Positions 36,626 to 62,327 of a stretch of 64,000 nt of DNA are shown one piece after another. The notes below the pieces were generated by a model. It saw only the letters and a list, made by a program, of their open reading frames with translations. It was not told the origin of the DNA and made no database searches. The translations under genes were made by a program, and so were the position numbers. Position 1 is the stretch's first letter. The number at the start of each line of letters is the position of its first letter. Source of the stretch: Burkholderiales bacterium (lineage in GTDB: Bacteria > Pseudomonadota > Gammaproteobacteria > Burkholderiales > JAEUOS01); contig OZ257137.1 in NCBI GenBank assembly GCA_965279115.1, positions 2,806,587 to 2,870,586 on the forward strand, read 5' to 3'.

Positions 36626-37624
36626 TTACTTGAAAGTGCCCAGCTTGCGCGCGAGTTGCCCGGCCTTTTCGAGCTCGCTCTTCATGTCGGCCTCGAACTG
36701 CTCGTTGGTGGGGCTGATGGGTTGCGCGCCGAGGCCGGTGAGACGTTCCTGGACCTCCTTTGAACGCATCGCGCCTTGGATGAGCGCGTTGAGCGTGGCC
36801 ACTGCTTCCTTTGGTGTGCCTGTGGGCGCGAGAAAGCCATACCACACCGGTGTGGGTGTATACCCGGGCACGCGCAACTCCTCGGCCAGCGGCGGCGCGT
36901 CGGGCAACAGCGGCGAGCGCTGCGTGTCGAATACCCCCAGCGCGCGGGCGCGGCCGGAGCGCAGGTGGGGCAAGGCCAGGGGCACCACCACCGGAAACAG
37001 CGGGATCTGCCCGCCGATGGTGTCGGTCATGGCCTGTGCCGTGCTCTTGTACGGCACCTCGACGATGTCCAGCCCCGCAGCCTGCTTGAACAACTCCATC
37101 TCCTGCTGGCTGATGGTGCCGGCGCCGGACGACGCGTAACTGAGCTTGCCCGGGTTGGCCTTGGCATATGCGACCAGTTCGCGCACGTTGGCAAACGGCG
37201 CGCCGGGGTTGGTGGCCAGCACCAATGGAATCACCGCGACCTTGGCGATCGGCACGAAGTCCTTGATCGGGTCGTAAGGCGGCTTGGCGTTCTGGCTTGG
37301 CACGATGATGAAAGGATTGGCGGCGATCAGCATGGTGTAGCCGTCGGGCGCCGACTTGGCTGCCGCCATGGTGCCGATCAGGCTGCCGCCGCCGTCGCGA
37401 TTCTCGATCACCACCGGCTGCCCCGATTTCTCCGTGATGCTCTGGCCGATGGTGCGCGCCAGGACGTCGCTACCGGTGCCGGCGGAGTAGGGCACGATGA
37501 TCTTCATCGGCCGGTTCGGGAAGGGGCCCGACTGCGCCAGCGCACTGTTGCATGCCAGCGCGGCGGCAACCGCCAACGTCAGTCCGACCACCCGGCGGCG
37601 CGCCTCGAGAATCCGTGAATGCAT
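36626..37624 (-). CDS. Bug-family (TctC-like) substrate-binding protein
   Basis: Signal peptide followed by FPNRPMKIIVPYSAGTGSD. The 559-aa ORF-track extension is rejected. Confidence 0.85.
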   Translation of the reverse strand: MHSRILEARRRVVGLTLAVAAALACNSALAQSGPFPNRPMKIIVPYSAGTGSDVLARTIGQSITEKSGQPVVIENRDGGGSLIGTMAAAKSAPDGYTMLIAANPFIIVPSQNAKPPYDPIKDFVPIAKVAVIPLVLATNPGAPFANVRELVAYAKANPGKLSYASSGAGTISQQEMELFKQAAGLDIVEVPYKSTAQAMTDTIGGQIPLFPVVVPLALPHLRSGRARALGVFDTQRSPLLPDAPPLAEELRVPGYTPTPVWYGFLAPTGTPKEAVATLNALIQGAMRSKEVQERLTGLGAQPISPTNEQFEADMKSELEKAGQLARKLGTFK

Positions 37625-37768
37625 TGTTGTCTCCTTGAAGATGGACCTGCACCCGACCAACCCGCGCTTCTTCGAGCGACTTTTGTTGACATTCTTATTA
37701 TATAACCATTTAATCGGTATCTTGCAATGGTCGCAACCGGCCTGGTTTTCCGAAGACCTACATATTTC

Positions 37769-38614
37769 ATGACGCAACCTGCACCCGAAAACAAGAAGGC
37801 CAAGGACTTGCCGGTCCGCAAGCGTCCGAAAGCCGCCGAACGGGTGGCAGAAGAACTGCGCCGCCAGATCGTCACCGGGCGCCTGAAGCCCGGCGACAAG
37901 CTCCAGCCAGAGAACATGCTGCAGGCCGAGTTCGCCATCTCGCGCCCGACCATGCGCGAAGCCCTGCGCATCCTCGAGTCGGAGTCGCTCATCAGCATCA
38001 GCCGTGGCAAGCACGGCGGTGCAAGGGTGACCCGGATGGACCTTGGCGCGGCCGCCAGCCAGGTGGGCGTGTACCTGCAGATCGAGGGCGCGACGCTTCA
38101 GGACGTGTGGCTGGCGCGCACCATCATCGAGCCGCCGGCGGCGGGCCTCTTGGCAGCGCAGCGCAACCCGCAGGCCTTCGCGGACCTGGAGGCCAACATC
38201 GTGGCCGCGCGCGAGGCCGCGCAGACCGACCTGATCCGCTATGCCGACCTGTCCGCCGAGTTTTCCATGCTGATCACCCGGCATTGCGGCAACAAGACCA
38301 TCCACCTCTTGTCTTCATTGATCTACGACATCATCCGTCGCCAGCACGAGGACGTGACCGCGCGCACCTCCACCCGGGCCAGCGTGGACAAGCTGCGCCA
38401 GGACAGCATCAGGAGCCGCGAAATGGCGGTGGCATTGATGAAGAGCGGCACCCCGGCGGTGGCCGAGAGCTTCTGGCGGGCGCACCTCGAGAACATGCGC
38501 GACCTTGTGCTGGCTGCCTACAAGGGGCCGATGACCATCGATGTGCTCAATGAGCCGATCGGCAAATTGCGGCCGATCGGCAACGTCAAGCGCAAGGCCG
38601 GTCCGGCCGCGTGA
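37769..38614 (+). CDS. GntR-family transcriptional regulator (FadR/FCD type)
   Basis: N-terminal winged HTH (AERVAEELRRQIVTGRLKPGDKLQPENMLQAEFAISRPTMREALRILE) and a helical C-terminal domain. Confidence 0.85.
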   Translation: MTQPAPENKKAKDLPVRKRPKAAERVAEELRRQIVTGRLKPGDKLQPENMLQAEFAISRPTMREALRILESESLISISRGKHGGARVTRMDLGAAASQVGVYLQIEGATLQDVWLARTIIEPPAAGLLAAQRNPQAFADLEANIVAAREAAQTDLIRYADLSAEFSMLITRHCGNKTIHLLSSLIYDIIRRQHEDVTARTSTRASVDKLRQDSIRSREMAVALMKSGTPAVAESFWRAHLENMRDLVLAAYKGPMTIDVLNEPIGKLRPIGNVKRKAGPAA

Positions 38615-38644
38615 AGTTGCAGCCCGGCTTCCTGTAGGCGGGGT

Positions 38645-39625
38645 TCAGTCGAGCGCGATTTTCAGCGTCGAGGTGACCTCGCGCACCTTGGCTACTTCTT
38701 CGCGCAGGAACTTCTGGAACACCTCCGGCGTGGCGGGGTAGGGTTCCGCGCCATAGGCCTGCAGGCGCTTCGCGTAGTCGGCGTCCGCCACCACTTGCTG
38801 CGATACCTGCGCCAGTCTGTCAATCGCCGCGCGCGGCGTGGCGGCCGGCGCCATCAGTCCGCAAAAGCCCAACTGCTCGATATCCGGAATGCCCTGTTCC
38901 ACATTGGTAGGCACCTCAGGCAGCACCGTTGCACGGCGTGGAGCGAACACCGTGAGCGCCCGCAACTGACCGGCCTTCAGGCGTGGGGCCACGCCGAACA
39001 CGGTATCGAACCCCAGGTCGGTCTGGCCGCTCATGGTGGCCTGGCTGGCCTCCGGGCCGCTCTTGTAAGGCACATGCAGCACGTCGATGCCGGTGCGCAT
39101 GCGCAACAATTCCATCTGCAGGTGCGCGCTGGTGCCGACACCCCAGGTGGAATAGGTGTACTTGCCGGGATTGGCCTTTGCCAGCGCGATGAATTCACCC
39201 AGGCTGCGCGCCGGGAAATCCGGACGCGCCGACAGGACGATGCCGGTGGTGAATAGACCCGTCACCGGGGTGAAGGTGACCAGCGGGTCGTATTCTGACT
39301 TGCGGTAGACGTGCGGCGCGACGATGTAGGTGTTGCTGGCAATCAGCAGGGTGTGGCCGTCGGCCGGCGCGCGCATCACCAGGCCGGCGGCAATCGCTCC
39401 GCCCGCCCCGGGTTTGTTGTCCACGATCACCGATACGCCCAGGAGTGCGGACGCCCTGGTGGCGTAGATGCGCGCGATCACGTCGATGGATGAGCCAGGC
39501 GCCAGCGGGCATACCAGGGTGATGGTCCTGGCAGGAAACGAGGGCGCCTGTGCGTTTGCCCTCGATGCCATGGATGCGAAGGGCGCAAACGCGGCGGCGC
39601 GAATCAGGGTGCGGCGTTGGTTCAT
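38645..39625 (-). CDS. Bug-family (TctC-like) substrate-binding protein
   Basis: Signal peptide followed by FPARTITLVCPLAPGSSID. Confidence 0.85.
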   Translation of the reverse strand: MNQRRTLIRAAAFAPFASMASRANAQAPSFPARTITLVCPLAPGSSIDVIARIYATRASALLGVSVIVDNKPGAGGAIAAGLVMRAPADGHTLLIASNTYIVAPHVYRKSEYDPLVTFTPVTGLFTTGIVLSARPDFPARSLGEFIALAKANPGKYTYSTWGVGTSAHLQMELLRMRTGIDVLHVPYKSGPEASQATMSGQTDLGFDTVFGVAPRLKAGQLRALTVFAPRRATVLPEVPTNVEQGIPDIEQLGFCGLMAPAATPRAAIDRLAQVSQQVVADADYAKRLQAYGAEPYPATPEVFQKFLREEVAKVREVTSTLKIALD

Positions 39626-40436: not shown

Positions 40437-41210
40437 CTATTCCCAGAGCACGTTCGGCAGCGGCAGGCCCGCCAGGTCTGCCGCGCTCAGGCGGCCATCC
40501 GGTTCGATTCCAAAGCGCTCGAGCACCGCCACCAGCTGGCGGGCATGCTGCGCGCAATGCCAGGTTGATCGTTCGAACAGCATGTGAATCGGATGCACGC
40601 CGAAAAACGTGTTCAGCGGCTGCTGGCAAGTGCGGTCGGCAAGTTCGTCCCACCAGCGTTCCAACCTGGCCATCACGTCATTGCCATAGGCGGCGATCTG
40701 TTCGCGGGTGAAGATGGTGCCGTCCGCGGTCTCGGCATTGGCCTTCTCGGCGGTGTATTCGGCGCCATCGGCCGCGCTTTCGAGAAACGCCTCGGCGATG
40801 CGAAACACATGGTGGCCGATCATGCGGATGGTGCGGTCGCGGTTGTCGATCACGCGCTCATCCAGACGTTCCGCCGGCATCTGGCGGATATAGCGATGCA
40901 CGGCGCGCAGCACAAGCAGCCACCGGGTGATCAGCTCATCGGGCGGCAGGCGGGCATGGCCGGTGCCTTGCAGGCCGACGAACTTCGCGACATCCTCGAG
41001 GTTTTGCGCGAAGACGAACTTGCTGCCATGCGCAACCACCGGGACGCTGCGCGCACCGAGCGCGAACAGCTTCTCCCTTCCGCCAGCGTCGTTCAGGACG
41101 TCAATGGCGACGAAGTCGATGCTCTTTTGCGAAAGAAACTCTTTCGTCCGGAGGCAGCTGCTTCACCCGGGCTGGGTGTAGAGGATGTACTTTTCGGCAA
41201 CGGCGGCCAT
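40437..41210 (-). CDS. glutaredoxin-like / DinB-like fusion protein with an in-frame TGA at the first position of a CxxC-type motif (candidate selenoprotein, or else a nonsense pseudogene)
   Basis: Hand translation from ATG 41210 gives MAAVAEKYILYTQPG-TGA-SSCLRTKEFLSQKSIDFVAIDVLNDAGGREKLFALGARSVPV. This runs in frame into the ORF-track 200-aa DinB-like ORF that starts at 41039. The TGA lies at 41165-41163. Confidence 0.55.
41130..41146 (-). promoter_or_regulatory. SECIS-like hairpin 16 nt downstream of the in-frame UGA
   Basis: On the mRNA strand, CGAAAGA-GUU-UCUUUCG forms a perfect 7-bp stem with a G-first apical loop. The loop begins 23 nt after the UGA. Confidence 0.4.
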
Positions 41211-41312: not shown

Positions 41313-41337
41313 AAAAAGGCCCAGCCGAAGCTGAGCC
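41313..41337 (-). terminator. rho-independent terminator at the left island junction
   Basis: Minus-strand RNA GGCUCAGC-UUCG-GCUGGGCC followed by UUUUU. Its position fits the original terminator of tRNA-Phe, displaced by the insertion. Confidence 0.6.
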
Positions 41338-41347
41338 TTTGAATGTT

Positions 41348-41705: not shown

Positions 41706-44363
41706 TCACCGTAGGGCAGCGCACCGCTCAATCTCGGCTTTTACCCCAACCATATATTTGACAGCAGTTTGCCACAAGAACGAAAGAAGAGTGTCTTGCG
41801 CCGATTGGTCGGATGGCGCCGCGCCGCTCACCGGCTTTTCGGGGATCAAGCTCAAAAGCTTGCTGTCTTTGGCCGTGGACGCGATAGTGAGAACGCCGAT
41901 CGTTTCCTCGGGCGAAATTTCTTCTCCGGGCTCAATGTCTCGCAGCGGCAACGGGATGGCGATCAAAACAGCGAATCTTTCGTCTACTGCCGGTTTTCTA
42001 TCTCCATAGTAAACATAGCCGCCGTCATGCTCTGGCCCCCACAACTCCCTCAGGGCGAACATCTGCAACTTGCGCTTCTTGAATGCTGTCCCGGCAACGC
42101 CTTCGCCCAATGGAATACTTTCCACTCGCCCTGAAAGGGATGCGTTGTCGCCAGCCTCCAACACGAGTTCCAGCCTATTCGTACGTTGATCGTACGTGAA
42201 CACTGCCACCGCTATTTTCTCGTCTTGAGAATATTGCGATTTGATCTTGGGTTTCAGCAACAGCTTGTAGATATCATCGAGCTTGCCCTTGGCGAGTTCA
42301 CGTAGTTTCTCGATCTCGGAAGACGGACTCTTGTCCCTGAATTGCAAAAGCGACTTACGCAGTTCGAGCGTCGCGCCTTTGTCTCTGATCGTGACTTCGT
42401 CGGCCGCCGTATTGACACGCCATCGGATCAAATATGCATAGCCAACAAGCGGCTCGGTGATTTCCAGCGCCCATCCATTGAACTCGGTGTGGGGATCTCG
42501 TTTCGTTCCCTGTTTCCGCCCAAGAGGACTCAGCCGGGATGACTCAAAATGGCCAATGTCCTCGTCGACCGTGTACCCACTGGCGCCAATTACAACCTCG
42601 CCGGCTGCGTCATCCACTTCCAGGTTCGGATAGCCATTTGACCGCTCGCAGAGAACGTGCGCCTCCGGCTGATGAAACGTTGTCGGAAGCCAAACCTTTA
42701 ATACGAGGCGCTTTGCCGGATGTCGGACTGCAACGCCCATATAGTCGAAGCCATTCAAGTTTGGATCCGCCTCCGTTTCCCACCTCGAGGTGGCAAATGT
42801 ATTGATAGTGCGAAATACGGCACCGTAATGATTGACCACCCTGCCGCTCAGATCACGGCCAAAATTGACATCGAGCTTCAGTTCCTTCGTAGGTTCATCA
42901 CTTTCAGGGGGGGCGATATAGTGCCCCGCAATGCTTGAGATGTCGTCGACTGCGGCGCCGGAAGGATTGATGGCACCGAGCTGAACAGACAATCTAAGTG
43001 ACCCTTTCCCCGACGAATTTCCCCCTAAGACTCTGTAGCCATCTACCCAGAGGTGAAAGTCCGCTGCCCCTGATTCGTAAACGTGCACCTCCCGGCCAAT
43101 GCAATCGCAGAAAGAATTCAGCAGTGCTACAGCTTTCTCGTAACTCCGATGCTTTACGGATTCAATAGGCAGGATTTCACGAATCTCCGAGGCCATCGTA
43201 CTCAATGCAGTTTGCCCCCGGCCATAACTGACGACCTGATGATTCATGAGACCGCTCGGGTGAATATCCACCAAGTTGAATGCATTGCGTCCGGCCTCGT
43301 CATGGCGAACCGTCGGGGAGCCGGCTGCGATTACTGCGAGTTCGCCGGCCGGACGGCTGGGTACCGAGTAGGAGAGCCTGCTGAAAGCCGAATAGTGCTT
43401 GTGCCCGTGAAGCACTAAGTCAAAGTGGTGCTTGCCCAGTTCATGCAGCAGTGTTCCGGCGTTCCGCAATACAAGGAAAGCTTCAATCGATGTCAGAGAT
43501 TCCTTCGTGGTGGAATGAGGTATCGGAAGGGGGTGGTGGTGAACCAGCGCGATTCTTGGGGCTAGACAAATCGTTACCCTGGTGTTGCGCAAACTCATCA
43601 GAGCCATGTCTAGCTTGTGGATATCGTTCTCGTCGACTTTGCCGGTGGCTAGGACCAAGCGGCAGTTTGAATTGAATGCGGCAAATAGAACAGCGTCGCC
43701 GCCTTCCTTTACTCCTCGCGGTCCTTGCGCATCGCTACTCTTCCGAACCTGAATTGGCAATATTTGTATGACATCAAGGGGTGTCTCTTGCTGCGGGCCG
43801 GCATTCAAGAGCCCAATCAGACGCATAGCGAAAAACTGGGCACACCAGCGCCAATAGGAAAGCCATCTCGACTTACTGCGCGAATGATATTCAGTAAACG
43901 TGGGGAGTTGGTCGAAAACACCCGCGTGCTTTTGCCTAAATACGACCCTTACGTAGCGGCTCCAAGGCCAAAACACAAGGTTTCCCATCACTGCGACGTC
44001 GTGGTTTCCGGGCACGTAGTAGATTTTGCAGTTCAGCCGATTGGCCAAGGCTTGGAGTTCGCGGCGAGCAAGGCCCAGTTCGAATAGCCATGGCGAATCC
44101 ACGATATCCCCCGTCACGACAACCGCGTCCGGACGATGCCTTTCGGTCAGCATGGCACTGACGTATCTCCAAAGCTCCGGATCGAATTGCGAGCCAAAAT
44201 GAATATCGGAAAGGTGCGCGATCCGATAGAAACCATTGCGATTTCTGCGCTGCGATGTATCGCCGTCAGCCCTTTCTGACGAACTCTCCGCAGTGCCGCT
44301 TTCGCCTCTTGGGTCGGGGCTATTGGCTTCCGAACCCACTCCATTCTGATGTTCCGTCGGCAT
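41706..44363 (-). CDS. large metallophosphoesterase (class III PDE-like motifs) with an unknown middle region and a C-terminal GAF-like domain
   Basis: All calcineurin-like motifs are present in order: LSDIHFG, TGDIVD, PGNHDV, LVHHHP, LHGHKH. The C-terminus carries a GAF-like block (IPLGEGVAGTAFKKRKLQMF...VLIAIPL...IGVLTIAS). Start taken at ATG 44363; the ORF track extends to 44492. Confidence 0.8.
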   Translation of the reverse strand: MPTEHQNGVGSEANSPDPRGESGTAESSSERADGDTSQRRNRNGFYRIAHLSDIHFGSQFDPELWRYVSAMLTERHRPDAVVVTGDIVDSPWLFELGLARRELQALANRLNCKIYYVPGNHDVAVMGNLVFWPWSRYVRVVFRQKHAGVFDQLPTFTEYHSRSKSRWLSYWRWCAQFFAMRLIGLLNAGPQQETPLDVIQILPIQVRKSSDAQGPRGVKEGGDAVLFAAFNSNCRLVLATGKVDENDIHKLDMALMSLRNTRVTICLAPRIALVHHHPLPIPHSTTKESLTSIEAFLVLRNAGTLLHELGKHHFDLVLHGHKHYSAFSRLSYSVPSRPAGELAVIAAGSPTVRHDEAGRNAFNLVDIHPSGLMNHQVVSYGRGQTALSTMASEIREILPIESVKHRSYEKAVALLNSFCDCIGREVHVYESGAADFHLWVDGYRVLGGNSSGKGSLRLSVQLGAINPSGAAVDDISSIAGHYIAPPESDEPTKELKLDVNFGRDLSGRVVNHYGAVFRTINTFATSRWETEADPNLNGFDYMGVAVRHPAKRLVLKVWLPTTFHQPEAHVLCERSNGYPNLEVDDAAGEVVIGASGYTVDEDIGHFESSRLSPLGRKQGTKRDPHTEFNGWALEITEPLVGYAYLIRWRVNTAADEVTIRDKGATLELRKSLLQFRDKSPSSEIEKLRELAKGKLDDIYKLLLKPKIKSQYSQDEKIAVAVFTYDQRTNRLELVLEAGDNASLSGRVESIPLGEGVAGTAFKKRKLQMFALRELWGPEHDGGYVYYGDRKPAVDERFAVLIAIPLPLRDIEPGEEISPEETIGVLTIASTAKDSKLLSLIPEKPVSGAAPSDQSAQDTLLSFLWQTAVKYMVGVKAEIERCAALR

Positions 44364-44881
44364 TCTTTTCTCGACTGTCTGCAGCGAGCCGTGGGAGCGA
44401 AAGCTCAACGCTTCATCGAACTCGATCGCATTGTTGAATTTCAACAAATGATGCGGGAGCGGCCGGAAAAACACAATCCGTAGAGGTGTCAAATTCCAAT
44501 GGAATGCGTGAATACAACGTGCGCTGCCGAAAAGTGAAGCCTACTGGGCCGACGATTCATGCTCAGTCGATCTATTGCCACCAGCGAACGTGCGACTCTC
44601 AACATACGGCGCGTCGCACCGGTCAATTTGGAAGCGCTGCCCGTGCCAATCGTCACCGATCGCCCTGGCCTCCTAGAAATGGAATTGAAATTCCTTCTAG
44701 AGGGTGCTTCAGACTCTGCTACCCGCAATCAGGTGTGCTCATTGCCTACAGGAAGCACCGTCTGGTAACTGCCAACCACATGAATCCGAGGCCTTTTCCG
44801 ATTGATAATCGCCATTTAATTATTTTATTTCGTCACTTTATGTTTATAATTCGTCAATTAATAGACATCGGTTTTTTGGCC

Positions 44882-46066
44882 ATGCAAGACATAGTCATAC
44901 AATCTAGTGACGAAACGCATATTTTGGAGGAAGATTTCGTCAATTTGTCACGTTTGGCTGCGAGCGAAGCGTTTGATGATGTCCGCATGCTGCTGGCGAA
45001 GCTTGTCCGCAAGTACAGGATCACCCGGCCGGAGTTTGCTCAACGACTTAACACTAGTCTTCGGGCTGCAAATGCGCGCTCGGGAGGTTCGGGATTATTG
45101 CGTCGCCATACGCCCGAGATGTCAAAAAGTTCCGATATGCCTGTCGACGCTGACTCACGAATGTCACTCATCCGCGTATTCGACGATCGAGCTGGACTGC
45201 AGCCCCCGCTCCTGCCCGAGGGTTTGTTCGACCAGATCCACGACATCGCACGAGAACGCAAGCAGCGAGCGCGCCTCGCAAAGCGTGGCGTCACACCGAG
45301 TCGGTCCGCCATTCTCGTCGGGCCGCCTGGGGTCGGCAAGACATTGTCTGCACGCTGGATCGCGCATCTAATCGGCAAGCCACTGTGGATACTGGATTTG
45401 ACGACGGTCATGAGCAGTCTTCTTGGCAAGACAGGCAATAACCTGCGAGCAGTGTTCGACCATGCGCGTCAGAATGAGGCAGTGCTGCTTTTGGATGAAA
45501 TCGACGCGATCGCAAAGCGTCGCAGCGACGAATCCGACGTCGGTGAGTTGAAGCGGTTGGTTACGGCAATCTTGCAGGAGGTGGATGCTTGGCCCGATTC
45601 GGGATTGCTACTGGCAGCAACTAATCATCCGGAACTGGTAGACCCGGCGCTGTGGCGTCGATTCGATGTAATTTTGTCCTTTCCCGCAACGGATGCCAGT
45701 TTGCTCGAGCAGGCCGTCGAACGTTTTCTGGGTCTGGATCTAAGTACGTTTCAGGCACACGTTCAATTGCTGGCCCTTTCGCTTCAGGGCATGTCTTTGT
45801 CGGACGTCGAACGCGCCGTTACGGCTCTCCGGCGAACGGTGGCCTTGAAGCGAAGTGACCCTACCACCGCTGTACTAGCTATGGCCAAGCAACATGTCAG
45901 TCACCTCGACAAACCTGCAAAGAGGAGATTGGCAATAGCAATGGCGGGCTCTGAAACATTTCCACACACGAAGATCATGGAGCTCACTGGCGTCTCGCGA
46001 GACACGATCCGCAAGTACGCCGGCCCCTCTCCAATAAAGGGACGTCCAGAAAAGAAGGAAGCCTAA
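44882..46066 (+). CDS. ietA: AAA+ ATPase, IetA-like
   Basis: Walker A GPPGVGKT, Walker B LLLDEID, sensor-1 AATN, and an RRFD arginine. The gene lies directly upstream of an S8 protease gene (1-nt gap). Start at ATG 44882 after an AT-rich promoter region. Confidence 0.75.
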   Translation: MQDIVIQSSDETHILEEDFVNLSRLAASEAFDDVRMLLAKLVRKYRITRPEFAQRLNTSLRAANARSGGSGLLRRHTPEMSKSSDMPVDADSRMSLIRVFDDRAGLQPPLLPEGLFDQIHDIARERKQRARLAKRGVTPSRSAILVGPPGVGKTLSARWIAHLIGKPLWILDLTTVMSSLLGKTGNNLRAVFDHARQNEAVLLLDEIDAIAKRRSDESDVGELKRLVTAILQEVDAWPDSGLLLAATNHPELVDPALWRRFDVILSFPATDASLLEQAVERFLGLDLSTFQAHVQLLALSLQGMSLSDVERAVTALRRTVALKRSDPTTAVLAMAKQHVSHLDKPAKRRLAIAMAGSETFPHTKIMELTGVSRDTIRKYAGPSPIKGRPEKKEA

Positions 46067-46067
46067 C

Positions 46068-48284
46068 ATGGCCAATCGATTTATTATCGGTCGTGGGGAG
46101 CTTCTGACCTACGACATCCTCCCACCGTCAATCAAGCCGACGAAATCACATCCATATACGCTTGACCAGGCCAAGGAGGCGGTTATTCCGCAAATTAGGA
46201 AAGCTGCGGTGGTGATGAAGGAATTACCGCAAGAGGCCTGCCCCCAGGACGTAAGCGTTGCGCAGCTGGACCTGCACCCGGCCTACATCTCAAAATCTTA
46301 CTTTCCCCAGGCACTGCTGCGACAGGCCGGCTTAACATCGATCGGTAGCCGAAATGTCGTAGTTCGGCCACGCAAACGTCACTCGAAAGCGGCGCCGGAA
46401 GAATCTGAGACGACCAGGCTATTTATTGCCGGCACGCGGAGTGCGTTTGCCAAACTGCCTGATTTCGCCATCGCATTGCAACCTGAAACCAAGGAGGCGG
46501 AGAATTTCGCAGAGATCGAATCCTTTTCCGCGATGACAGTAACCGATCGCGTGCGCCCTTCTCCTTCCGGCCAGGAAATATTTGAAATCGGCGTTCATCT
46601 ACTCCCGGATGAGCAACTGGAAGCGACGCGCAGCGCATTTCGAAGGTATGCCAAGTCATGCGACTTCGAAATTCACCCCGAGCTGGAATTCCCTGTCGGG
46701 CGCATGATCTTTTTCGCGGCCCGCGGCGAGAAAAGAAATCTGAACCGACTCGCAATGTTCAGCCTCGTGCGCGTGGTACGTCCAATGGCAAAAATGCGTG
46801 GTTCACGCCCGATTCCCCGCGGAACAGGGACGCTGGTCGACTTCATGCTTCCAGCAAGTCAGCCATTAGCCGACGAGCCGCGCGTGGCGATCTTGGACGG
46901 CGGCTTACCTGCAAAACATCCGCTGACCCGTTTCGTGAAGAAGTACGAGAAGTCAGATCCACGGGCGGCGGACGTTCCTGCATATCTCGACCATGGGCTT
47001 GCGGTCACGTCCGCCTTTCTTTTTGGGCCGATTGAGCCGGAAGAAGAGGCGGTTCGTCCCTACACGCCGGTCGACGTTTTTCGTGTCCTCGATTCCAAGT
47101 CGGACAAAGAAGATCGGTACGAACTGTTCCGCACCATGGGCCACGTGGAAGAGATTCTCTTGACCCGGCAATATCAGTTCCTCAATATAAGCCTCGGACC
47201 CGAAGCGATCGTGGAGGACAACGATGTGCACGCGTGGACGTCTATGCTCGATACCATGTTGTCGGATGGAGAGACAATCGTCACCGTGGCGGTGGGTAAC
47301 AATGGCGCCGGAGACAAAGCACTACAGCAGGATCGTCTGCAAGTGCCTTCAGACAGTGTCAATGCTATCTCAGTGGGCGCCGCGAACCGCTCAAGGGCGT
47401 CGTGGCAACGGGCATCCTACAGCGCTCGCGGCCCCGGGCGCAGCCCTGGGCGCCGGAAACCCGATGTCGTGGTTTTCGGGGGAAGTCCGAAGGAATACTT
47501 TCATGTCGCCGCGCCCGGGACGCGGCCGCAACTTGTCGCGACATTCGGGACGAGCTTTGCTTCACCGTACCTTCTTCGATCCTGTGTTGGTGTACGGGCA
47601 GTTCTCGGCGATCAGGTCCATCCGTTGACCGCAAAGGCCTTGGTTGTTCATGCAGCAGAAAACGAAGACGGACTGCATCCCGACGATGTCGGCTGGGGCC
47701 GTGTTCCAAGTGATTTGAACGCGATCATTTCTTGCGGTGTCGGTGTCGCGCGCATCATTTATCAGGGAACTCTGCGTCCTGGAAAGTTACTGCGCGCGCC
47801 ACTTCCACTTCCCACCAAAGCCTTGGCAGGCAACATCGAAATCACGGCAACCTTCTGTTACGCGAGCCCGGTCGACGTCGCGGATGCCGCCACGTATACC
47901 AAGGCTGGCCTCACCATTCGGTTCCGTCCAAACTCGGATAGGAAGACCAAGGGTAAGAAGCCTGAGGCGGCAACAAATTCCTTTTTTTCCCAAGGGGAAT
48001 TTCGAACTGAAAAGCAGCTTCGCGCTGATCTTGGCAAATGGGAAACTGTCCTACACGCTAAAGCCACCAAGCGTGGCAGCAGCTTGAAGGAACCCTGCTT
48101 TGACATCCACTACAACGCACGGGACGGTGGAGGGCCGACCGGCTCCGGTGCGGAAATTATCCGTTACTCATTGGTCTTGACTGTTCACGCCCCTAGGCAT
48201 GTCGACATTTACGATGAGATATTGAGATCGCACGCAAAGCTACAGGCGCTTGCGCCTCGGGTAGCGTTGCCAATTCGAGCGTGA
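46068..48284 (+). CDS. ietS: subtilisin-like (S8) serine protease, IetS-like
   Basis: Catalytic blocks in the S8 order: AILDGG (Asp), DHGLAVTSA (His), VGNNG (Asn), GTSFASPY (Ser). Large N- and C-terminal extensions. Confidence 0.8.
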   Translation: MANRFIIGRGELLTYDILPPSIKPTKSHPYTLDQAKEAVIPQIRKAAVVMKELPQEACPQDVSVAQLDLHPAYISKSYFPQALLRQAGLTSIGSRNVVVRPRKRHSKAAPEESETTRLFIAGTRSAFAKLPDFAIALQPETKEAENFAEIESFSAMTVTDRVRPSPSGQEIFEIGVHLLPDEQLEATRSAFRRYAKSCDFEIHPELEFPVGRMIFFAARGEKRNLNRLAMFSLVRVVRPMAKMRGSRPIPRGTGTLVDFMLPASQPLADEPRVAILDGGLPAKHPLTRFVKKYEKSDPRAADVPAYLDHGLAVTSAFLFGPIEPEEEAVRPYTPVDVFRVLDSKSDKEDRYELFRTMGHVEEILLTRQYQFLNISLGPEAIVEDNDVHAWTSMLDTMLSDGETIVTVAVGNNGAGDKALQQDRLQVPSDSVNAISVGAANRSRASWQRASYSARGPGRSPGRRKPDVVVFGGSPKEYFHVAAPGTRPQLVATFGTSFASPYLLRSCVGVRAVLGDQVHPLTAKALVVHAAENEDGLHPDDVGWGRVPSDLNAIISCGVGVARIIYQGTLRPGKLLRAPLPLPTKALAGNIEITATFCYASPVDVADAATYTKAGLTIRFRPNSDRKTKGKKPEAATNSFFSQGEFRTEKQLRADLGKWETVLHAKATKRGSSLKEPCFDIHYNARDGGGPTGSGAEIIRYSLVLTVHAPRHVDIYDEILRSHAKLQALAPRVALPIRA

Positions 48285-48691: not shown

Positions 48692-49300
48692 TCAGCTTGC
48701 AAGTCTCCCTTTTGACGTCCAAAAGGCCAAGTCACGGTCCCCCTTGTCATGGGCGGAGTTCGGGCCGGATTGACGCGCCAGCAGCCCCTCATAAATCTGC
48801 GCTCCAACACTGGAAAGCGCGATAAACTGCGCTACCCGCAGCCCTGGGTAGAGGACGATTGGCACTGTTCCCACATTCACCAGTTCAAGGGTGATCGCCC
48901 CGACGAATCCCGGGTGCACAGCAACTGCTGTTGCCACGACAAGTCCGGATCGCCCCCAAGAAGAGCGAGATGTGACATACCCAGAAATATCCACTGGCAA
49001 GCGAAACCATTCCATGGTCGCTGCAAGGACAAGTTCGTTTGGATGTAGGACGAATTTCTCACCGCGGTCGACATAGTGGTGATGTTCGTATTTTTCCTTC
49101 AGCCTATTTGGCGCTTTGGCCGGATCGATGGAATCCAGGTTTCCGCGACGGGTCGTGATGAACTCATACCCCAGGCGGACGTCAATGGACCCCGGGCCGA
49201 CTTGCTCTTCCAGATCGAAGATCGGCGTGATAATAAGTCGGGACTCGAGCGTTTCCCGGGTCATCGCCTCGATTAATTTGTCGTGGCCAAGCACACTCAT
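48692..49300 (-). CDS. dCTP deaminase / dUTPase-fold protein (short Dcd-like)
   Basis: By eye it aligns with E. coli Dcd blocks: SIDVRLG, LHPNELVLAATME, SRSSWGRSGL, HPGFVGAITLELVN. The catalytic Ser, Arg and Glu positions are retained. ATGA overlap with the upstream gene. Confidence 0.8.
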   Translation of the reverse strand: MSVLGHDKLIEAMTRETLESRLIITPIFDLEEQVGPGSIDVRLGYEFITTRRGNLDSIDPAKAPNRLKEKYEHHHYVDRGEKFVLHPNELVLAATMEWFRLPVDISGYVTSRSSWGRSGLVVATAVAVHPGFVGAITLELVNVGTVPIVLYPGLRVAQFIALSSVGAQIYEGLLARQSGPNSAHDKGDRDLAFWTSKGRLAS

Positions 49301-51641: not shown

Positions 51642-53021
51642 CTAATTGCGAGGTAGGCAGAAGCCGCAGTTTGGTGCCGTGCTATTCTCAAAAACGACTT
51701 GCCGGTCGACCGGGGATCGCAGGTCCATGTCCAATAGCGCGATGCGGCGCCCGCCGTGAAGGCCACGAACTATCTCGGCAATGACCAGACATGCCGCTAT
51801 CATGCCCACAAACGGAGCACCCACCGTCCGCTCGGCCAGCAAGACCAGTCCGCACTGGTCAAGGCCAGCGGCGCTGAGGGCTTGGTAAGCCTCGCGTTCC
51901 AACGGCAACACGCCGCGCACGGCCGGCTTGCCCCAAATTTTCCGAGCTGCCCGAGGCCCCGGGAACGTGTTCAAGCGCATGGTCTGGAACTCCGCAGGCC
52001 CTGCCCCGAGGCCGGCGTCGATGACCCACGTGAAACCCACTTCTTCCAGTGCCGAACGGGCCATCGCGTTGTCGACGCCGCACAAAGCCAGCGAGGGTTC
52101 GTCTTCACGTACCCTGAAATGCGAGTCGAACTTCCGTTCCACCAGACGCGTCTGAAATCCCAATCCCTCGGCCCAAGCCGCCATCGCCCGGGTTTTGGGA
52201 CGGTCGCGGAGAGCTGCCGTGGTCAGCACTGACGTGCTTTCATTGGCCAGGTTCAGCCGATCGAAGTCCTGGAGTACCAGAGTCAGATCTTCCGGGTTGC
52301 GATACGGCAACATCGAAAGCACCCATAGGTAGGCCTGACCAAGGTGGCCCAGACCAATCAGCCAGAGCGAGTTAGGCAAGAGTTCCAGCTTCGGCGCCTG
52401 CGCATCGGCTTTGATCCAGTTCTCGGCCGTCCCGGGTGACCAGAGAGACATTCCGACTGCTCGCCGCGCCGCCGGCGCGAACCCGCCGCGCAAGTGCAAG
52501 AACACCTCGGACACCGCGATGGCGCCTGCCAGCACACCCGCAATCGTCAACGTATTCTTGCCGGTCGGCAGCGTGGCTTGGTCGGCAGGCAGTACGCCAC
52601 CACGCCAGCCATCGAATACGCAACGCAGTGCGACTGCCGAACGGTCGTCAATCAGGGTGTCACCGATGATGATCAATGGTATGACAGTAGGCGGCGTTTC
52701 ACCCAGACGTCCGCCGAGGGCAAGCACAGCTTCGCGCAGCGTGTTTGCATTATCGGAGGGGACCAGAAGCGGTGCGTCAGGTACGCTGCTCACGAACACG
52801 CCTCCGAGAAGGGCACGTCGGCCAATCGCAATCACCGTTAACAGGGCCGCCTGACCCGCAGGCGTTTCTGCGGCTTCCTCACCGATGACCAGTTCCGTCG
52901 AATACCCAAAAAGCTTCCTTTCGGCCTCTTCAATGGTCGCCGCGTCGCCGGCGTCGACAAGGATCTTGACGATACGATTGAGTTCGTCGGGGGTAGGTAT
53001 CTGCTTCGTCATGATGCTCAT
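51642..53021 (-). CDS. bilD: E1-like (ThiF/MoeB-fold) activating enzyme, BilD-like
   Basis: Rossmann motif LIGLGHLGQAY and the adenylation-domain block CGVDNAMARSAL. Its ATG overlaps the JAB gene stop (ATGA). Confidence 0.7.
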   Translation of the reverse strand: MSIMTKQIPTPDELNRIVKILVDAGDAATIEEAERKLFGYSTELVIGEEAAETPAGQAALLTVIAIGRRALLGGVFVSSVPDAPLLVPSDNANTLREAVLALGGRLGETPPTVIPLIIIGDTLIDDRSAVALRCVFDGWRGGVLPADQATLPTGKNTLTIAGVLAGAIAVSEVFLHLRGGFAPAARRAVGMSLWSPGTAENWIKADAQAPKLELLPNSLWLIGLGHLGQAYLWVLSMLPYRNPEDLTLVLQDFDRLNLANESTSVLTTAALRDRPKTRAMAAWAEGLGFQTRLVERKFDSHFRVREDEPSLALCGVDNAMARSALEEVGFTWVIDAGLGAGPAEFQTMRLNTFPGPRAARKIWGKPAVRGVLPLEREAYQALSAAGLDQCGLVLLAERTVGAPFVGMIAACLVIAEIVRGLHGGRRIALLDMDLRSPVDRQVVFENSTAPNCGFCLPRN

Positions 53022-53536
53022 CCCAGAAATCCAATGTAGAAGAATTGTCGGGCCGCGCCAGAATGATCTTTCCACCTATAACCGCCCCGGTACTCGAAGA
53101 TGCACAGGGTGTCAGCCGACAGGCTGCCTCGGCCCATATTCGACGCGATCAAGGCGAGGTGGCCAGCACGTGCCACCATGGGGTTGGTTCGGTCGGCGTC
53201 GCTTTGAAATGCACGGCCGACATGGGTGTGAATGTCAGCCACTACCGTCAGCGCCTCCTCTCTGCAGGTCTGCCAGAGCTTTCCGAACGAATCGCCCGTT
53301 AGGACGCAAACGCCGCTTTTGTAAGCGTTCGGGTCGAGGTCGTCGTAGTACAGTGCCTTGACGATCTCGCGCACACCGTCAGTGTCGCGTCCCAGCAGGA
53401 ACGCTCCACTTTCGTGGAAGCCTTCGCTTCGACGGGTCAGCTCTCGCCGGATAACTGACCACATGCCCGACCTGACTGTCAGGCGATGATCAGGGGCAAC
53501 GAACGCCCGTATAGTCTTGCGAATTGAGAAGTTCAT
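53018..53536 (-). CDS. bilC: JAB/JAMM metalloprotease, BilC-like
   Basis: HESGAFLLG (Glu) and DIHTHVGRAFQSDAD (an HxH-x6-SxxD JAMM-like motif). A strong GAGGTG SD lies 4 nt before ATG 53536, which sits inside the 3' end of the E2-like gene. Confidence 0.8.
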   Translation of the reverse strand: MNFSIRKTIRAFVAPDHRLTVRSGMWSVIRRELTRRSEGFHESGAFLLGRDTDGVREIVKALYYDDLDPNAYKSGVCVLTGDSFGKLWQTCREEALTVVADIHTHVGRAFQSDADRTNPMVARAGHLALIASNMGRGSLSADTLCIFEYRGGYRWKDHSGAARQFFYIGFLG

Positions 53537-56423: not shown

Positions 56424-58943
56424 TCAGTCGGCGTTCCCCAGGAGCGCAGTATTGATGACTACATACCGTCTGCGCCCGTCTTCTTCCAGTCGGGCCCGGT
56501 TACGTTCGGCGAGAATGGACAGCGCCGCCTGGAAGTCCCGGCTGCTGCGCACGCAATTCGGCCCATACTGATAGATGCGCTTGGTCGGTACACGATCCAC
56601 GCCGTTGGCGCGCGCTTCCTGACGCAGCCAGGCATCGAACCGGATCGCAGCAGCCATAGAGGGTGGCGTATCCAATTCAGCAAGCAGGCGCCGCGCTTCG
56701 CCTAAGTGCCACCCAACTATATGGACGGCCGCATCAATATCCCCAACCCCGATCGTTCCAGCAGGCCCATGCGCCAGCACATGAAACAGCGCTGCCAGGC
56801 GCGCAGCATTCTCCGCCGCCTTCGCGGCCACATCGCGAACAGCGCGGAATTCCCCATGTGCACCGAGTTCACGCTCAATCCCATCGTGAAACTGGATCCA
56901 CTCCGCACGTGCCTGCGGCGCGAGATCGAGGATGGGCGGATCAAGGCCGCCGCAGGCGTCGGCCGCGAGTGCCTGCCCGAGCAGGTCGCCGATGCGCGCC
57001 GCATACAACGTCACGCTCGGCATGGTCGCGGGCGCCGGCCGATACGGCCGCTGTCCTTGCGTGCTGTCTGGCCAGGCCATGAGGAAGCGCGCGATAAACC
57101 CGGTCCCTCGTGGCAGCGGTCCGGCCCGTTCCAGGAACCCCCGTAACGCCTCCGGCTGCGCCATCAACCCGAACGTGAGGCGCCGGCCGCGCAGCAAGAA
57201 CGAGGGCCGGGATCGCCGATCGATCGCCATCTCTCCGCCGTCCCACAGGACATTGAGCAGCGCCAGATTGCGCAGAATCGTGTCCTGCCCCATGCCATGC
57301 GCGCCGAACACCGCACCGGCTTCCGCGGACAGCACGCCGCCGCTCGGCCAACCGTTGGCCAGCGCATGCGCCAGTGCTTCTGGCGTCGCATCGGCGTAGA
57401 TCAGGCGCGGCACGACAAGCGGCGCAAGCGCCTGGCGGACCAGGTCCTCCAGTTCACTCTCTTGGACCGTCGTGTCCTGCGCGCGGCGCCGCCGCTGCTT
57501 GATGGCTTCGAGAAGGCCTGCTTTTTTCGCCTCGTATGCCGCGATTGCCGCTTCGCGCTGGGCGATCGCCGGCGCCATGCCCAGGATCCGACCGGTTTCC
57601 CAATCCCGCAACGCCTGGCCAAAGATCGCGTCACAGGTGGTCTTGCGTTCCCCGGAATCGGCCACTGCCATCAGATACAGGGAAATCGGACCCACCAACT
57701 GGTGATCCCGGCGCACGTTGGCCAACCCCTGCGCCGCCAGCGATAGTGCCGCCAGGGCCGAGCACGCGACAAGTGCCATGGGGGCCTGTACAAAGCCCTG
57801 GGCTTCGGTCACCGCGTCGCGCAACATCGTGGGCAGGGCGTCGACCGGGTAAGGCTGCGCGTCCATCGGTTCGGTCAAGGGTTCGGGCTCTGGCCATTCC
57901 GGAAATCGCGTCCCGCTGGCCTGTGGAGGCCTTGTGTCGAAATTGCCGCCGGCTACCGGCTCCACGGCTGCGGTAGAGAGCGTATTTCGAACGGCGATCA
58001 AACCCTGGAGCTGATGCAGGTCGTTGAAGTCCGTCGCGCCGTCCGGGCGATCGGCACCAAATGCCGGAACCGCGAGTCGCGCATCCACCGCACGCGCAGC
58101 GGCGCGGGCGTGCGTGAGGCCTGGATTGCCAGGCGTGGCCGCATCGTCATCGGCGCAGATGATGAGCTGCGCCCGGGGATGTTTATCCCGGATGACCCCG
58201 GCGACCGCGCCAAGATTGCCGGCATGGAAGGCCACGGCCACCGGATGCCCTGTGGCCAGGTGAATGCTCGCGCCGGTCGCATAGCCTTCGGCGACGCAGA
58301 TGACCCCCGCCGTGGTATTGCCGACATCTCCGATTCCGCAAAACAGGCCGGCGACACGTCCGCCCTTCAGGAATCGCTTGGTGCCGCCTCCCGTGATGAA
58401 CTGCAAGCTGTGCAACACGCCGGCCGCGTCGCGTAGCGGTACGACCAGGGCCCCCTTGTAGACGCGTATCCCGAACGCGCCGACACCTTTGCGCACCAGG
58501 TAGGGGTGGTGGTGGTCTGCCGGCTGTGCCGTCTCCCAGAGACGCGTAGCGCGAGCCTGCGCGGCACGGTGACGTACTGCATTTGCTGCCTCGCGCCGAT
58601 CGAGGTCGACGCGGGTTCGCGTGGCAATCGTCGCATGTTCCCCTGGCGACAATTCTCGTCCCGAGTCGAAGCGCCAGGATTCCCAGCCGCGGCCATCACG
58701 CCAGTTCTCCAGACCGCCCGCCGGTAACCCATCCATGTGCAGGACGTAGGCGGCATCGCCGCGACCGTGCTTGCCGGCCGCGTCGCAGCGATGCAGGCAA
58801 CCGTCTGCGAGTATCGGTTCCGGTGGGACGATGTCGCGGGCGACGAGGGCAGCGCGAAACTGATCCACGACCGACGCCAAACTGGGGGCGGTTCTCGGGG
58901 CGTGGCTTGGGCGAGGAGAAGAGGATTTCTGATCGCCAGCCAT
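56424..58943 (-). CDS. Toprim-domain primase-like protein with a DUF3987-like C-terminal half (island replication protein)
   Basis: Toprim Glu in VICVAEGYATG and DxD in IICADDD. The C-terminal DSGERKTT block is typical of DUF3987 proteins. The gene starts 6 nt after the alpA stop. Confidence 0.8.
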   Translation of the reverse strand: MAGDQKSSSPRPSHAPRTAPSLASVVDQFRAALVARDIVPPEPILADGCLHRCDAAGKHGRGDAAYVLHMDGLPAGGLENWRDGRGWESWRFDSGRELSPGEHATIATRTRVDLDRREAANAVRHRAAQARATRLWETAQPADHHHPYLVRKGVGAFGIRVYKGALVVPLRDAAGVLHSLQFITGGGTKRFLKGGRVAGLFCGIGDVGNTTAGVICVAEGYATGASIHLATGHPVAVAFHAGNLGAVAGVIRDKHPRAQLIICADDDAATPGNPGLTHARAAARAVDARLAVPAFGADRPDGATDFNDLHQLQGLIAVRNTLSTAAVEPVAGGNFDTRPPQASGTRFPEWPEPEPLTEPMDAQPYPVDALPTMLRDAVTEAQGFVQAPMALVACSALAALSLAAQGLANVRRDHQLVGPISLYLMAVADSGERKTTCDAIFGQALRDWETGRILGMAPAIAQREAAIAAYEAKKAGLLEAIKQRRRRAQDTTVQESELEDLVRQALAPLVVPRLIYADATPEALAHALANGWPSGGVLSAEAGAVFGAHGMGQDTILRNLALLNVLWDGGEMAIDRRSRPSFLLRGRRLTFGLMAQPEALRGFLERAGPLPRGTGFIARFLMAWPDSTQGQRPYRPAPATMPSVTLYAARIGDLLGQALAADACGGLDPPILDLAPQARAEWIQFHDGIERELGAHGEFRAVRDVAAKAAENAARLAALFHVLAHGPAGTIGVGDIDAAVHIVGWHLGEARRLLAELDTPPSMAAAIRFDAWLRQEARANGVDRVPTKRIYQYGPNCVRSSRDFQAALSILAERNRARLEEDGRRRYVVINTALLGNAD

Positions 58944-62251: not shown

Positions 62252-62327
62252 TGGTGGCCTGGGGCGGAATCGAACCACCGACACAAGGATTTTCAATCCT
62301 CTGCTCTACCGACTGAGCTACCAGGCC
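62252..62327 (-). tRNA. tRNA-Phe (GAA anticodon), CCA encoded
   Basis: Hand-folded cloverleaf: GGCCTGG acceptor stem, GCTC/GAGC D stem, GAGGA-TTGAAAA-TCCTC anticodon arm with GAA, a TTCGATT T-loop, and a CCAGGCC-ACCA 3' end. Confidence 0.9.

What the first reader, a model, noticed from the sequence alone, without database searches (positions are those of the whole stretch)
40437..41210. In-frame TGA at the first Cys position of a glutaredoxin CxxC motif, with a downstream hairpin: candidate selenoprotein (Grx-DinB fusion)
**The reading frame.**
- Hand translation from ATG 41210 gives MAAVAEKYILYTQPG-[TGA]-SSCLRTKEFLSQKSIDFVAIDV...SVPVVAHGSKFVF.
- This continues without interruption into the 200-aa DinB-like ORF listed from 41039.
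- The N-terminal 60 aa read as a glutaredoxin fold. In that fold the sequence after the first beta strand is normally PGCxxC, and here the first Cys codon is TGA, giving U-S-S-C.

**The hairpin.**
- Sixteen nt after the TGA the mRNA can form CGAAAGA-GUU-UCUUUCG, a 7-bp stem.
- The apical loop starts with G and begins 23 nt from the UGA. This fits the usual bacterial SECIS geometry.

**Interpretation.**
- Sec-for-Cys replacement in thiol-oxidoreductase motifs is the most common class of bacterial selenoprotein.
- The ORF track and standard annotation would truncate this gene.
- The alternative is a simple TGC-to-TGA nonsense mutation.
Basis: partly seen in the sequence, partly recalled or inferred. 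Interest (0 to 1): 0.6.

Follow-up and report, generated by a model that had tools for sequence, protein, structure and literature searches.

The report
Selenocysteine-coding glutaredoxin–DinB fusion gene
The in-frame TGA is almost certainly a selenocysteine codon at the active site of a glutaredoxin fused to a DinB-type metal-binding domain. The family is widespread, gene callers routinely truncate it, and I did not find it in current selenoprotein catalogues.

Summary
A minus-strand ORF (41210..40437) reads MAAVAEKYILYTQPG-TGA-SSCLRTKEFL… and continues into a DinB_2 domain. A 7-bp hairpin with a GUU loop lies 16 nt after the TGA.

The TGA is not a nonsense mutation. Eighteen loci at 35–90% protein identity and 33–69% GC keep TGA at this codon, with coding-type conservation on both sides. 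Five DNA loci and 57 of 150 family representatives carry Cys there (QPGC[ST]SC).

In 11 TGA-form genes the six hairpin codons (ACG AAA GAG TTT CTT TCG) are 100% identical. Other conserved residues show 57% codon identity.

Two relatives place selA–selB next to the gene; one also has tRNA-Sec.

TGA is the ordinary stop in this window.

Caveats:
- The hairpin alone is not significant (z −1.0; 11% of synonymous recodings give ≥7 bp).
- Covariation is weak.
- No Sec machinery lies in the 64-kb window.
- Nothing is experimentally shown.

No NCBIfam model covers the protein, and a 2026 catalogue of 119 selenoprotein families lists no Grx–DinB entry. I rate it a new variant of a known kind.

The parts
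40437..41210 (-). Complete Grx(U)–DinB gene: ATG 41210 to TAG stop 40439..40437, 257 codons including one UGA
   Evidence: tblastn alignments cover residues 1-257 in relatives.
41166..41210 (-). The 15 codons upstream of the UGA (MAAVAEKYILYTQPG). They encode beta-strand 1 of the Grx fold.
   Evidence: The peptide EKF/YILYTQPG is conserved with synonymous variation (GAA/GAG, CTC/CTG/CTT, CAG/CAA, CCC/CCT, GGG/GGC/GGT) across TGA forms. The model of a Cys-form relative has strand E8-12 here.
41163..41165 (-). In-frame TGA, the proposed selenocysteine codon (residue 16), first position of the U-S-S-C redox motif (41154..41165)
   Evidence: TGA at the aligned codon in 18 loci. TGC/TGT in five Cys-form loci.
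41130..41146 (-). Upper SECIS-like hairpin: CGAAAGA (41146..41140), loop GUU (41139..41137), UCUUUCG (41136..41130)
   Evidence: The codons ACG AAA GAG TTT CTT TCG are 100% identical in 11 TGA-form genes against 0.57 elsewhere. The helix is paired in 91% of cells, and pair 20:36 shows CG to UA changes. The sequence is unique in the window.
41120..41156 (-). Possible extended lower stem of the SECIS (nt 10-15 with 41-46 after the U of UGA); weakly supported
   Evidence: RNAfold predicts it in most TGA forms. It is paired in 70% of cells, and two pairs change on both sides.
41013..41186 (-). Glutaredoxin domain (residues 9-66), including the cis-Pro motif SVPVV at 41034..41048
   Evidence: Pfam PF00462 E 3.3e-11. 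PDB glutaredoxin 7c10 E 4e-5. Grx/NrdH folds match at TM 0.8-0.88.
40533..40907 (-). DinB_2 / YfiT-type four-helix-bundle domain (residues 102-226). Candidate metal ligands are H134 (40809..40811), H218 (40557..40559) and H222 (40545..40547). A nearly invariant Cys195 lies at 40626..40628.
   Evidence: Pfam PF12867 E 2e-5. The His columns are invariant in a 45-sequence alignment. Foldseek probability is 1.0 to DR0053 and YfiT, with target TM up to 0.81.

Best explanation
The gene encodes a 257-residue selenoprotein. UGA at codon 16 is proposed to be recoded as selenocysteine by SelB·GTP·Sec-tRNA(Sec), recruited by the hairpin 16 nt downstream (upper stem CGAAAGA/UCUUUCG, loop GUU). That puts Sec at the nucleophilic first position of the glutaredoxin U-S-S-C motif, at the N-terminus of helix alpha-1. 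The Grx domain is fused to a DinB/YfiT-type four-helix bundle that keeps the His triad typical of metal-dependent thiol S-transferases. Shown here: the conserved TGA, the Sec/Cys pairing, RNA-level constraint on the hairpin, linkage to the sel genes in relatives, and the two folds. Inferred: actual Sec insertion, and a function as a selenol-based oxidoreductase or thiol transferase in which the Grx(Sec) site works with the DinB metal site. In some genomes an adjacent low-Mr TrxR-like flavoprotein may re-reduce it.
For: (1) TGA sits at the same codon in the window plus 10 close loci (57-90% identity). It is also there in 7 of 7 divergent 'truncated' representatives at 35-44% identity and 33-69% GC. 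(2) Amino acids are conserved with synonymous variation on both sides of the TGA. (3) Cys forms with the same architecture exist: L011, L012, L023, L025 and L027 at DNA level, and 57 of 150 representatives. All 120 top hits to the Sec clade are N-truncated calls. All 120 top hits to the Cys clade are full length. (4) The six hairpin codons are 100% identical in 11 TGA forms against 0.57±0.20 elsewhere, rank first of 151 windows, and use minor AT-rich codons; Cys forms vary there. (5) L015 shows a CG to UA compensatory change and keeps the GU-start loop. (6) L005 reads Grx-DinB, then selA (Pfam 1.6e-157), selB, a TrxR-like gene, then tRNA-SeC. L010 has selA-selB divergently adjacent. (7) TGA is the normal stop here: 31 of 53 long frames end in it, and supported genes have no internal TGA. 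(8) The hairpin fits the published bacterial SECIS description: a stem-loop right after the UGA with a small apical loop containing G (PMC1088965).
Against: No selA, selB or tRNA-Sec lies in the 64-kb window, and the rest of the genome is unavailable. selD was not found in any fetched locus. The hairpin alone is not significant, and shuffle-based covariation is not significant. Some divergent members (L016, L017, L019, L020) have different and weaker hairpins. No Rfam model matches. There are no expression, mass-spectrometry or 75Se data.
Confidence: 0.88

Rival explanations
1. A recent TGC-to-TGA nonsense mutation: the gene is a pseudogene or an N-terminally truncated DinB protein.
For: A single-base change from TGC gives TGA. 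The ORF lister and public gene callers all report a shorter ORF.
Against: TGA is retained in 18 loci across 35-90% identity. Coding-type conservation holds on both sides, and the downstream start codons chosen by gene callers are inconsistent (200-238 aa).
Confidence: 0.02
2. The family is a genuine selenoprotein family, but in this particular genome the Sec machinery has been lost, or the UGA is decoded some other way (near-cognate Trp/Cys readthrough). The window's copy would then be a relic or make only traces of a non-Sec protein.
For: No sel genes or tRNA-Sec lie in the 64 kb. The gene sits next to a recently inserted island.
Against: The ORF is intact over 257 codons, the hairpin is perfectly preserved, and the gene is 76-82% identical at DNA level to TGA-form relatives with no frameshifts. 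Sec machinery is usually unlinked, so its absence from 64 kb says little.
Confidence: 0.07
3. The UGA terminates a 15-codon leader peptide, and the downstream part is translated separately by re-initiation. The hairpin would be a regulatory element rather than a SECIS.
For: Hairpins after short ORFs can regulate translation. The hairpin is conserved as RNA.
Against: The 15 codons encode the conserved beta-1 strand of the Grx fold, contiguous in Cys forms. No conserved start codon or SD follows the UGA. The stop is always TGA. The gene is linked to selA, selB and selC.
Confidence: 0.02

Closest known systems
Sec-containing glutaredoxin (Grx, PF00462, UxxC; experimentally verified in Clostridium; listed in PMC13188914 Table 1 and in the Sargasso Sea set PMC1088965)
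   Same: Grx fold. Sec replaces the first Cys of CxxC at the start of helix alpha-1. Cys-form homologues exist. The SECIS hairpin lies directly after the UGA.
   Different: Known Sec-Grx proteins are stand-alone proteins of about 80-100 aa. This one is a 257-aa fusion to a DinB domain, found mainly in Burkholderiales/Betaproteobacteria MAGs, and its motif is U-[ST]-[SA]-C.
DinB/YfiT (S-transferase-like) superfamily: YfiT/BstA bacillithiol transferases, mycothiol S-transferase, mycothiol-dependent maleylpyruvate isomerase, DR0053
   Same: Four-helix bundle. Foldseek probability 1.0 to 6iz2, 1rxq and 2nsf. Invariant His triad, as described for the superfamily (PMC10950700).
   Different: Sequence similarity is marginal (DinB_2 25.5 bits against a 24.8 cutoff). 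The known enzymes are not fused to a redoxin, contain no Sec, and use free low-molecular-weight thiols. No activity is known for this family.
UXX-star / HUGP-GUXX-star glutaredoxin-like selenoprotein families (NCBIfam NF041212, NF041211, NF041114, NF045501)
   Same: Grx-like fold with Sec. The N-terminal 60 residues hit them weakly.
   Different: All scores are far below cutoff (36.9 against 66; 25.7 against 100; 20.5 against 325). As the family names indicate, Sec there lies three residues from the C-terminal stop, not in an N-terminal UxxC.
Canonical GSTs and Grx2 (GrxB): thioredoxin-fold domain plus a helical domain
   Same: Overall logic: an N-terminal thiol-binding Trx-fold domain followed by an all-helical substrate domain. 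Weak whole-chain Foldseek hits.
   Different: The helical domains are unrelated (rmsd 11-16 Å, TM about 0.3). This is analogy, not homology.
E. coli fdhF-type bacterial SECIS
   Same: A stem-loop within the coding region just 3' of the UGA, with a small apical loop bearing G (then U). This comparison rests on my own knowledge plus PMC1088965.
   Different: The sequence differs. The loop here is only 3 nt and lies 23 nt after the UGA. SelB binding is untested.

Membership tests
Bacterial selenoprotein gene (UGA-Sec recoding) | In-frame UGA conserved at the same codon among orthologues | tested here: met
   18 loci, including the window, at 35-90% identity
Bacterial selenoprotein gene (UGA-Sec recoding) | Cys-containing homologues aligned at the UGA position (Sec/Cys pair) | tested here: met
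   L011, L012, L023, L025 and L027 have TGC/TGT; 57 of 150 representatives have CxxC
Bacterial selenoprotein gene (UGA-Sec recoding) | Protein-coding conservation on both sides of the UGA in one frame | tested here: met
   Synonymous variation with conserved amino acids both upstream and downstream
Bacterial selenoprotein gene (UGA-Sec recoding) | SECIS stem-loop immediately 3' of the UGA with a small apical loop containing G | tested here: met
   7-bp stem with GUU loop; synonymous sites invariant. Covariation is weak and the single-sequence fold is not significant.
Bacterial selenoprotein gene (UGA-Sec recoding) | selA, selB, selC and selD present in the same genome | tested here: inconclusive
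   None in the 64-kb window. Relatives L005 (selA, selB, tRNA-SeC) and L010 (selA, selB) have them adjacent. selD was not seen. The window's full genome is unavailable.
Bacterial selenoprotein gene (UGA-Sec recoding) | Selenium demonstrated in the protein (75Se labelling or mass spectrometry) | not testable with these tools
   Requires experiment
Glutaredoxin (Pfam PF00462) | Profile match above the gathering threshold; CxxC-type motif after beta-1; cis-Pro (VP) motif; Trx/Grx fold | tested here: met
   43.7 bits against 22.9. U-S-S-C and SVPVV read directly. Grx/NrdH structures match the model of a Cys-form relative at TM 0.8-0.88.
DinB_2 / DinB-YfiT superfamily | Profile match, four-helix bundle, conserved three-His metal site | tested here: met
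   25.5 bits against 24.8, only just above cutoff. Foldseek probability 1.0 to 6iz2, 1rxq and 2p1a. H134, H218 and H222 columns are invariant. Metal binding itself was not tested.
UXX-star Grx-like selenoproteins (NF041212 and relatives) | Score above the NCBIfam cutoff | tested here: not met
   36.9 against 66; 25.7 against 100; 24.2 against 97; 14.4 against 72
Catalogued prokaryotic selenoprotein families (119 in PMC13188914) | A listed family with Grx plus DinB architecture | tested here: not met
   'DinB' occurs 0 times in the review, and neither part of the table lists such a family. No library paper links DinB with a selenoprotein.

The most novel reading that the evidence does not exclude
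Grx(Sec)–DinB is an unrecognised, widespread selenoenzyme class. It would be a DinB-scaffold analogue of glutathione transferases and Grx2, in which a selenol on the fused redoxin works with the His3 metal site. In some aerobic Burkholderiales it may be the selenoprotein that keeps the Sec-decoding trait in place, which would explain its position beside selA-selB-selC. The self-complementary K-E-F-L codons of the Grx helix may have pre-adapted the family for repeated Cys-to-Sec switches.
Probability: 0.25. Interest if true: 0.72.

Novelty: new variant of a known kind. Interest (0 to 1): 0.6.

Why it matters
Sec-for-Cys replacement in a thioredoxin-fold UxxC motif is a familiar theme, and Sec-glutaredoxins are known. 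This architecture (Grx fused to a DinB/YfiT metal domain) is absent from NCBIfam and from a 2026 catalogue of 119 prokaryotic selenoprotein families. Every public gene call I saw for the TGA forms is truncated and named 'DinB family protein', 'glutaredoxin domain-containing protein' or 'hypothetical protein'. Roughly half of the family's sequence diversity appears to be Sec forms, mostly in soil and freshwater Betaproteobacteria, a group not noted for rich selenoproteomes. Recognising the family would correct many annotations and add a selenoprotein linked to the sel operon. It would also give the poorly understood DinB superfamily a built-in redox partner, which suggests testable chemistry.

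Tried and rejected
- Single-sequence significance of the hairpin was rejected as evidence. The dinucleotide-shuffle z-score is -1.0. Synonymous recoding gives p of 0.11-0.16.
- MFE comparison of Sec and Cys forms does not discriminate, because GC-rich Cys forms also fold.
- Covariation against shuffles is not significant, because the columns barely vary. Only pair 20:36 has double changes.
- Rfam found no SECIS match at gathering or permissive thresholds.
- The search for Sec machinery in the window found nothing. ARAGORN finds only tRNA-Phe. tblastn with L005 SelA and SelB gives no hit. Motif regexes for SelD, SelA and SelB give no hit.
- selD was not found among the tested ORFs flanking L005 and L010.
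- A reassigned genetic code was rejected, since TGA is the main stop codon here.
I reran it with the exact post-TGA sequence.
- No att direct repeat was found for the neighbouring island.
- The tools do not return the model's coordinates, so the distance between the Sec site and the His triad could not be measured.

Full report
**Observation.** On the minus strand, ATG 41210 opens a frame that reads MAAVAEKYILYTQPG, then TGA (41165..41163), then SSCLRTKEFLSQKSIDFVAIDV…. It runs without further stops to TAG at 40439..40437. The mechanical ORF list shows only the 200-aa GTG ORF 40437..41039. With Cys substituted for the stop, Pfam reports Glutaredoxin for residues 9-66 (E 3.3e-11) and DinB_2 for residues 102-226 (E 2e-5, just above threshold). 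NCBIfam has no model covering the whole protein, only sub-threshold hits of the N-terminal 60 residues to Grx, NrdH and UXX-star families. The hairpin CGAAAGA-GUU-UCUUUCG lies at 41146..41130, 16 nt after the TGA.

**The TGA is conserved, not a lesion.**
- All 120 best database homologues (64-90% identity) are annotated as proteins of 200-238 aa. Their called starts fall at various points after the motif, some at 'MRTKEFLS' directly after U-S-S-C.
- In six GTDB genomes (Burkholderiales, Betaproteobacteria and Pseudomonadota MAGs) and four more metagenome contigs, the DNA has an in-frame TGA at exactly this codon. The peptide EKF(I/L)L(Y/F)TQPG precedes it and SSCLRTKEFLS follows it.
- I fetched DNA for seven much more divergent 'N-truncated' cluster representatives, at 35-44% identity and with locus GC from 33% to 69%. 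All seven have TGA at the same position.
- Codon-level comparison shows synonymous variation with conserved amino acids on both sides of the TGA, so both sides are translated in one frame.
- TGA is otherwise the commonest ordinary stop in the window: 31 of 53 long frames end in it, including the neighbouring TctC gene, and supported genes have no internal TGA. A reassigned code is therefore excluded.

**Sec/Cys pairing.**
- Two metagenome loci at 48-51% identity (L011, L012) and three further loci (L023, L025, L027) encode the same Grx–DinB architecture with TGC or TGT at that codon. Their motifs are (Q/P)GCSSC or QPGCTSC.
- Among the 150 best 50%-identity cluster representatives, 57 carry CxxC at that position and 67 start just after the motif. 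The remainder are 24 fragments and 2 that cover the motif without CxxC. None is annotated with U.
- A search seeded with a Cys form returns 120 of 120 full-length proteins, generically named 'glutaredoxin/uncharacterized damage-inducible protein DinB'. This contrasts sharply with the 120 of 120 truncated calls in the window's clade.
- On a rough NJ tree the two states are interspersed: at least 21 changes, against about 34 for shuffled labels. That suggests repeated switching. The caveat is that 'U' was inferred from truncation for all but the verified cases.

**The hairpin.**
- Taken alone it is weak evidence. Dinucleotide shuffles give z = -1.0.
- About 11% of synonymous recodings of the window's own peptide yield a stem of 7 bp or more, because K-E-F-L codons (AAR GAR / UUY YUN) are inherently self-complementary. 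GC-rich Cys forms can also fold.
- The comparative signal is strong. In 11 TGA-form genes spanning 35-90% protein identity, the six codons ACG AAA GAG TTT CTT TCG are identical in every sequence. Other conserved residues show 0.57±0.20 pairwise codon identity.
- This is the top-ranked of 151 six-codon windows and the only one at or above 0.95. It uses minor AT-rich codons in a 63% GC genome.
- Cys forms that encode the same TKEFL peptide use varied, GC-richer codons.
- L015 (33% GC) has GUGAAAGA-GUA-UCUUUCAC: a CG to UA double change plus an added pair, and the loop still begins with GU.
- Across 16 TGA forms the upper helix is paired in 91% of cells, against 43-60% for slid controls. Only one pair shows double changes, and the shuffle test is not significant.
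- Some divergent members have different hairpins at about the same distance.
- The geometry agrees with the published description of bacterial SECIS elements: a stem-loop directly after the UGA with a small apical loop containing guanosine (PMC1088965). Rfam has no matching model.

**Sec machinery.**
- The window has only tRNA-Phe and no selA or selB.
- In relative L005 (a TGA form), the gene is followed 110 nt later by selA (Pfam SelA E 1.6e-157) and then selB (GTP_EFTU, SelB beta-barrel and winged-helix domains). Next come a low-Mr TrxR-like flavoprotein with a CADC motif and tRNA-SeC with anticodon UCA.
- In L010 (a TGA form at 57% identity, from another metagenome), selA-selB lie divergently next to the gene.
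- selB and selC are the accepted signatures of the Sec-decoding trait (PMC1273633 abstract). selD was not seen in the flanks I could test.

**What the protein is.**
- An AlphaFold model of a full-length Cys-form relative is confident (pLDDT 91, pTM 0.87). Strand beta-1 is the stretch encoded upstream of the TGA, and the CxxC motif sits at the start of helix alpha-1. A four-helix bundle follows.
- Foldseek matches the C-terminal domain to DinB/YfiT proteins: DR0053, YfiT, BCE_2162 and mycothiol-dependent maleylpyruvate isomerase. It matches the N-terminal domain to Grx and NrdH redoxins. No solved structure contains both, and GSTs match only as a loose architectural analogy.
- Three His columns are invariant in the family (H134, H218 and H222 in the window), and a Cys (C195) is nearly invariant.
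- The DinB superfamily consists of metal-dependent four-helix-bundle enzymes that typically bind metal through three His. [quoted passage not shown]
- I therefore infer a selenol-based oxidoreductase or thiol transferase in which the Grx(Sec) site cooperates with the DinB metal site.
- A TrxR-like gene is adjacent in one Sec-form locus and one Cys-form locus. This hints at a dedicated reductant, but it is not general.

**Novelty.** The 2026 review of the prokaryotic selenoproteome lists 119 families, including a stand-alone Grx (PF00462, UxxC). It never mentions DinB. No paper in the library links DinB with selenocysteine or selenoproteins. No NCBIfam model covers the protein. Public annotations truncate it. 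I classify it as a new variant (a new domain architecture or subfamily) of a known kind, the thioredoxin-fold UxxC selenoproteins.

**Verdict.** Three uncertainties remain: the unseen Sec machinery of this genome, the weak formal covariation, and the lack of any experimental evidence.

Noticed in passing
window ~41400-62330: A roughly 20-kb integrated island sits next to tRNA-Phe (62252-62327). It is absent from relative L001, and GC is 0.54-0.57 against 0.64 in the flanks. It carries a P4-type integrase (60864-62084), a Toprim/DUF3987 primase-like gene (56424-58943), a BilD homologue (51642-53075), a dCTP-deaminase-like gene (48692-49300), the IetA/IetS defence pair (44486-48284) and a 928-aa metallophosphoesterase (41706-44492). 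It ends just upstream of the Grx-DinB gene. No att repeat was found.
   Followed up: partly
window 41130-41146 and the equivalent site in L011, L012, L023, L025, L027: The conserved Grx helix peptide K-E-F-L is encoded by intrinsically self-complementary codons (AAR GAR / UUY YUN). About 11% of synonymous recodings give a stem of 7 bp or more at SECIS distance. This may have pre-adapted the family for Cys-to-Sec conversion.
   Followed up: partly
L005 10881-15923; L010 13-2856: There is a compact sel cluster beside the gene. L005 has selA, selB, a TrxR-like flavoprotein (CADC) and tRNA-SeC, all co-oriented downstream. L010 has selA-selB divergently upstream. selD was not seen in either flank.
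   Followed up: partly
L005 14640-15557; L023/L024 6824-7780: A low-Mr thioredoxin-reductase-like gene (Pyr_redox_2, CxxC) lies adjacent to Grx-DinB in one Sec-form locus and one Cys-form locus. The two proteins are 35% identical. It is a possible dedicated reductase.
   Followed up: partly
window 36626-39625; L010 3880-4848; L025 4765-6727: TctC (Bug-family) solute-binding genes lie directly downstream of Grx-DinB in the window, in a Sec-form relative and in a Cys-form relative. This could be real synteny, or it could just reflect how abundant Bug genes are in Burkholderiales.
   Followed up: no
window 40545-40562 (WHCAQH) and 40626-40628 (Cys195): The window's clade has a Cys between the two His ligands (WH-C-AQH), where most family representatives have Ser or Ala. 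A second Cys (D-R/K-S/T-C) is nearly invariant across the family. Either could be a resolving or partner thiol for the Sec.
   Followed up: no
L013 1597-2342: This metagenome contig has the TGA and an indel-disrupted copy of the hairpin core (one T missing), and it is riddled with frameshifts. It is probably a low-quality assembly rather than a pseudogene.
   Followed up: no
window 41315-41340 (minus strand): A terminator-like hairpin (11 bp, T-rich tail) lies about 100 nt upstream of the gene's ATG. It marks the end of the upstream unit. The consensus scan found no sigma-70-like promoter between it and the ATG.
   Followed up: no
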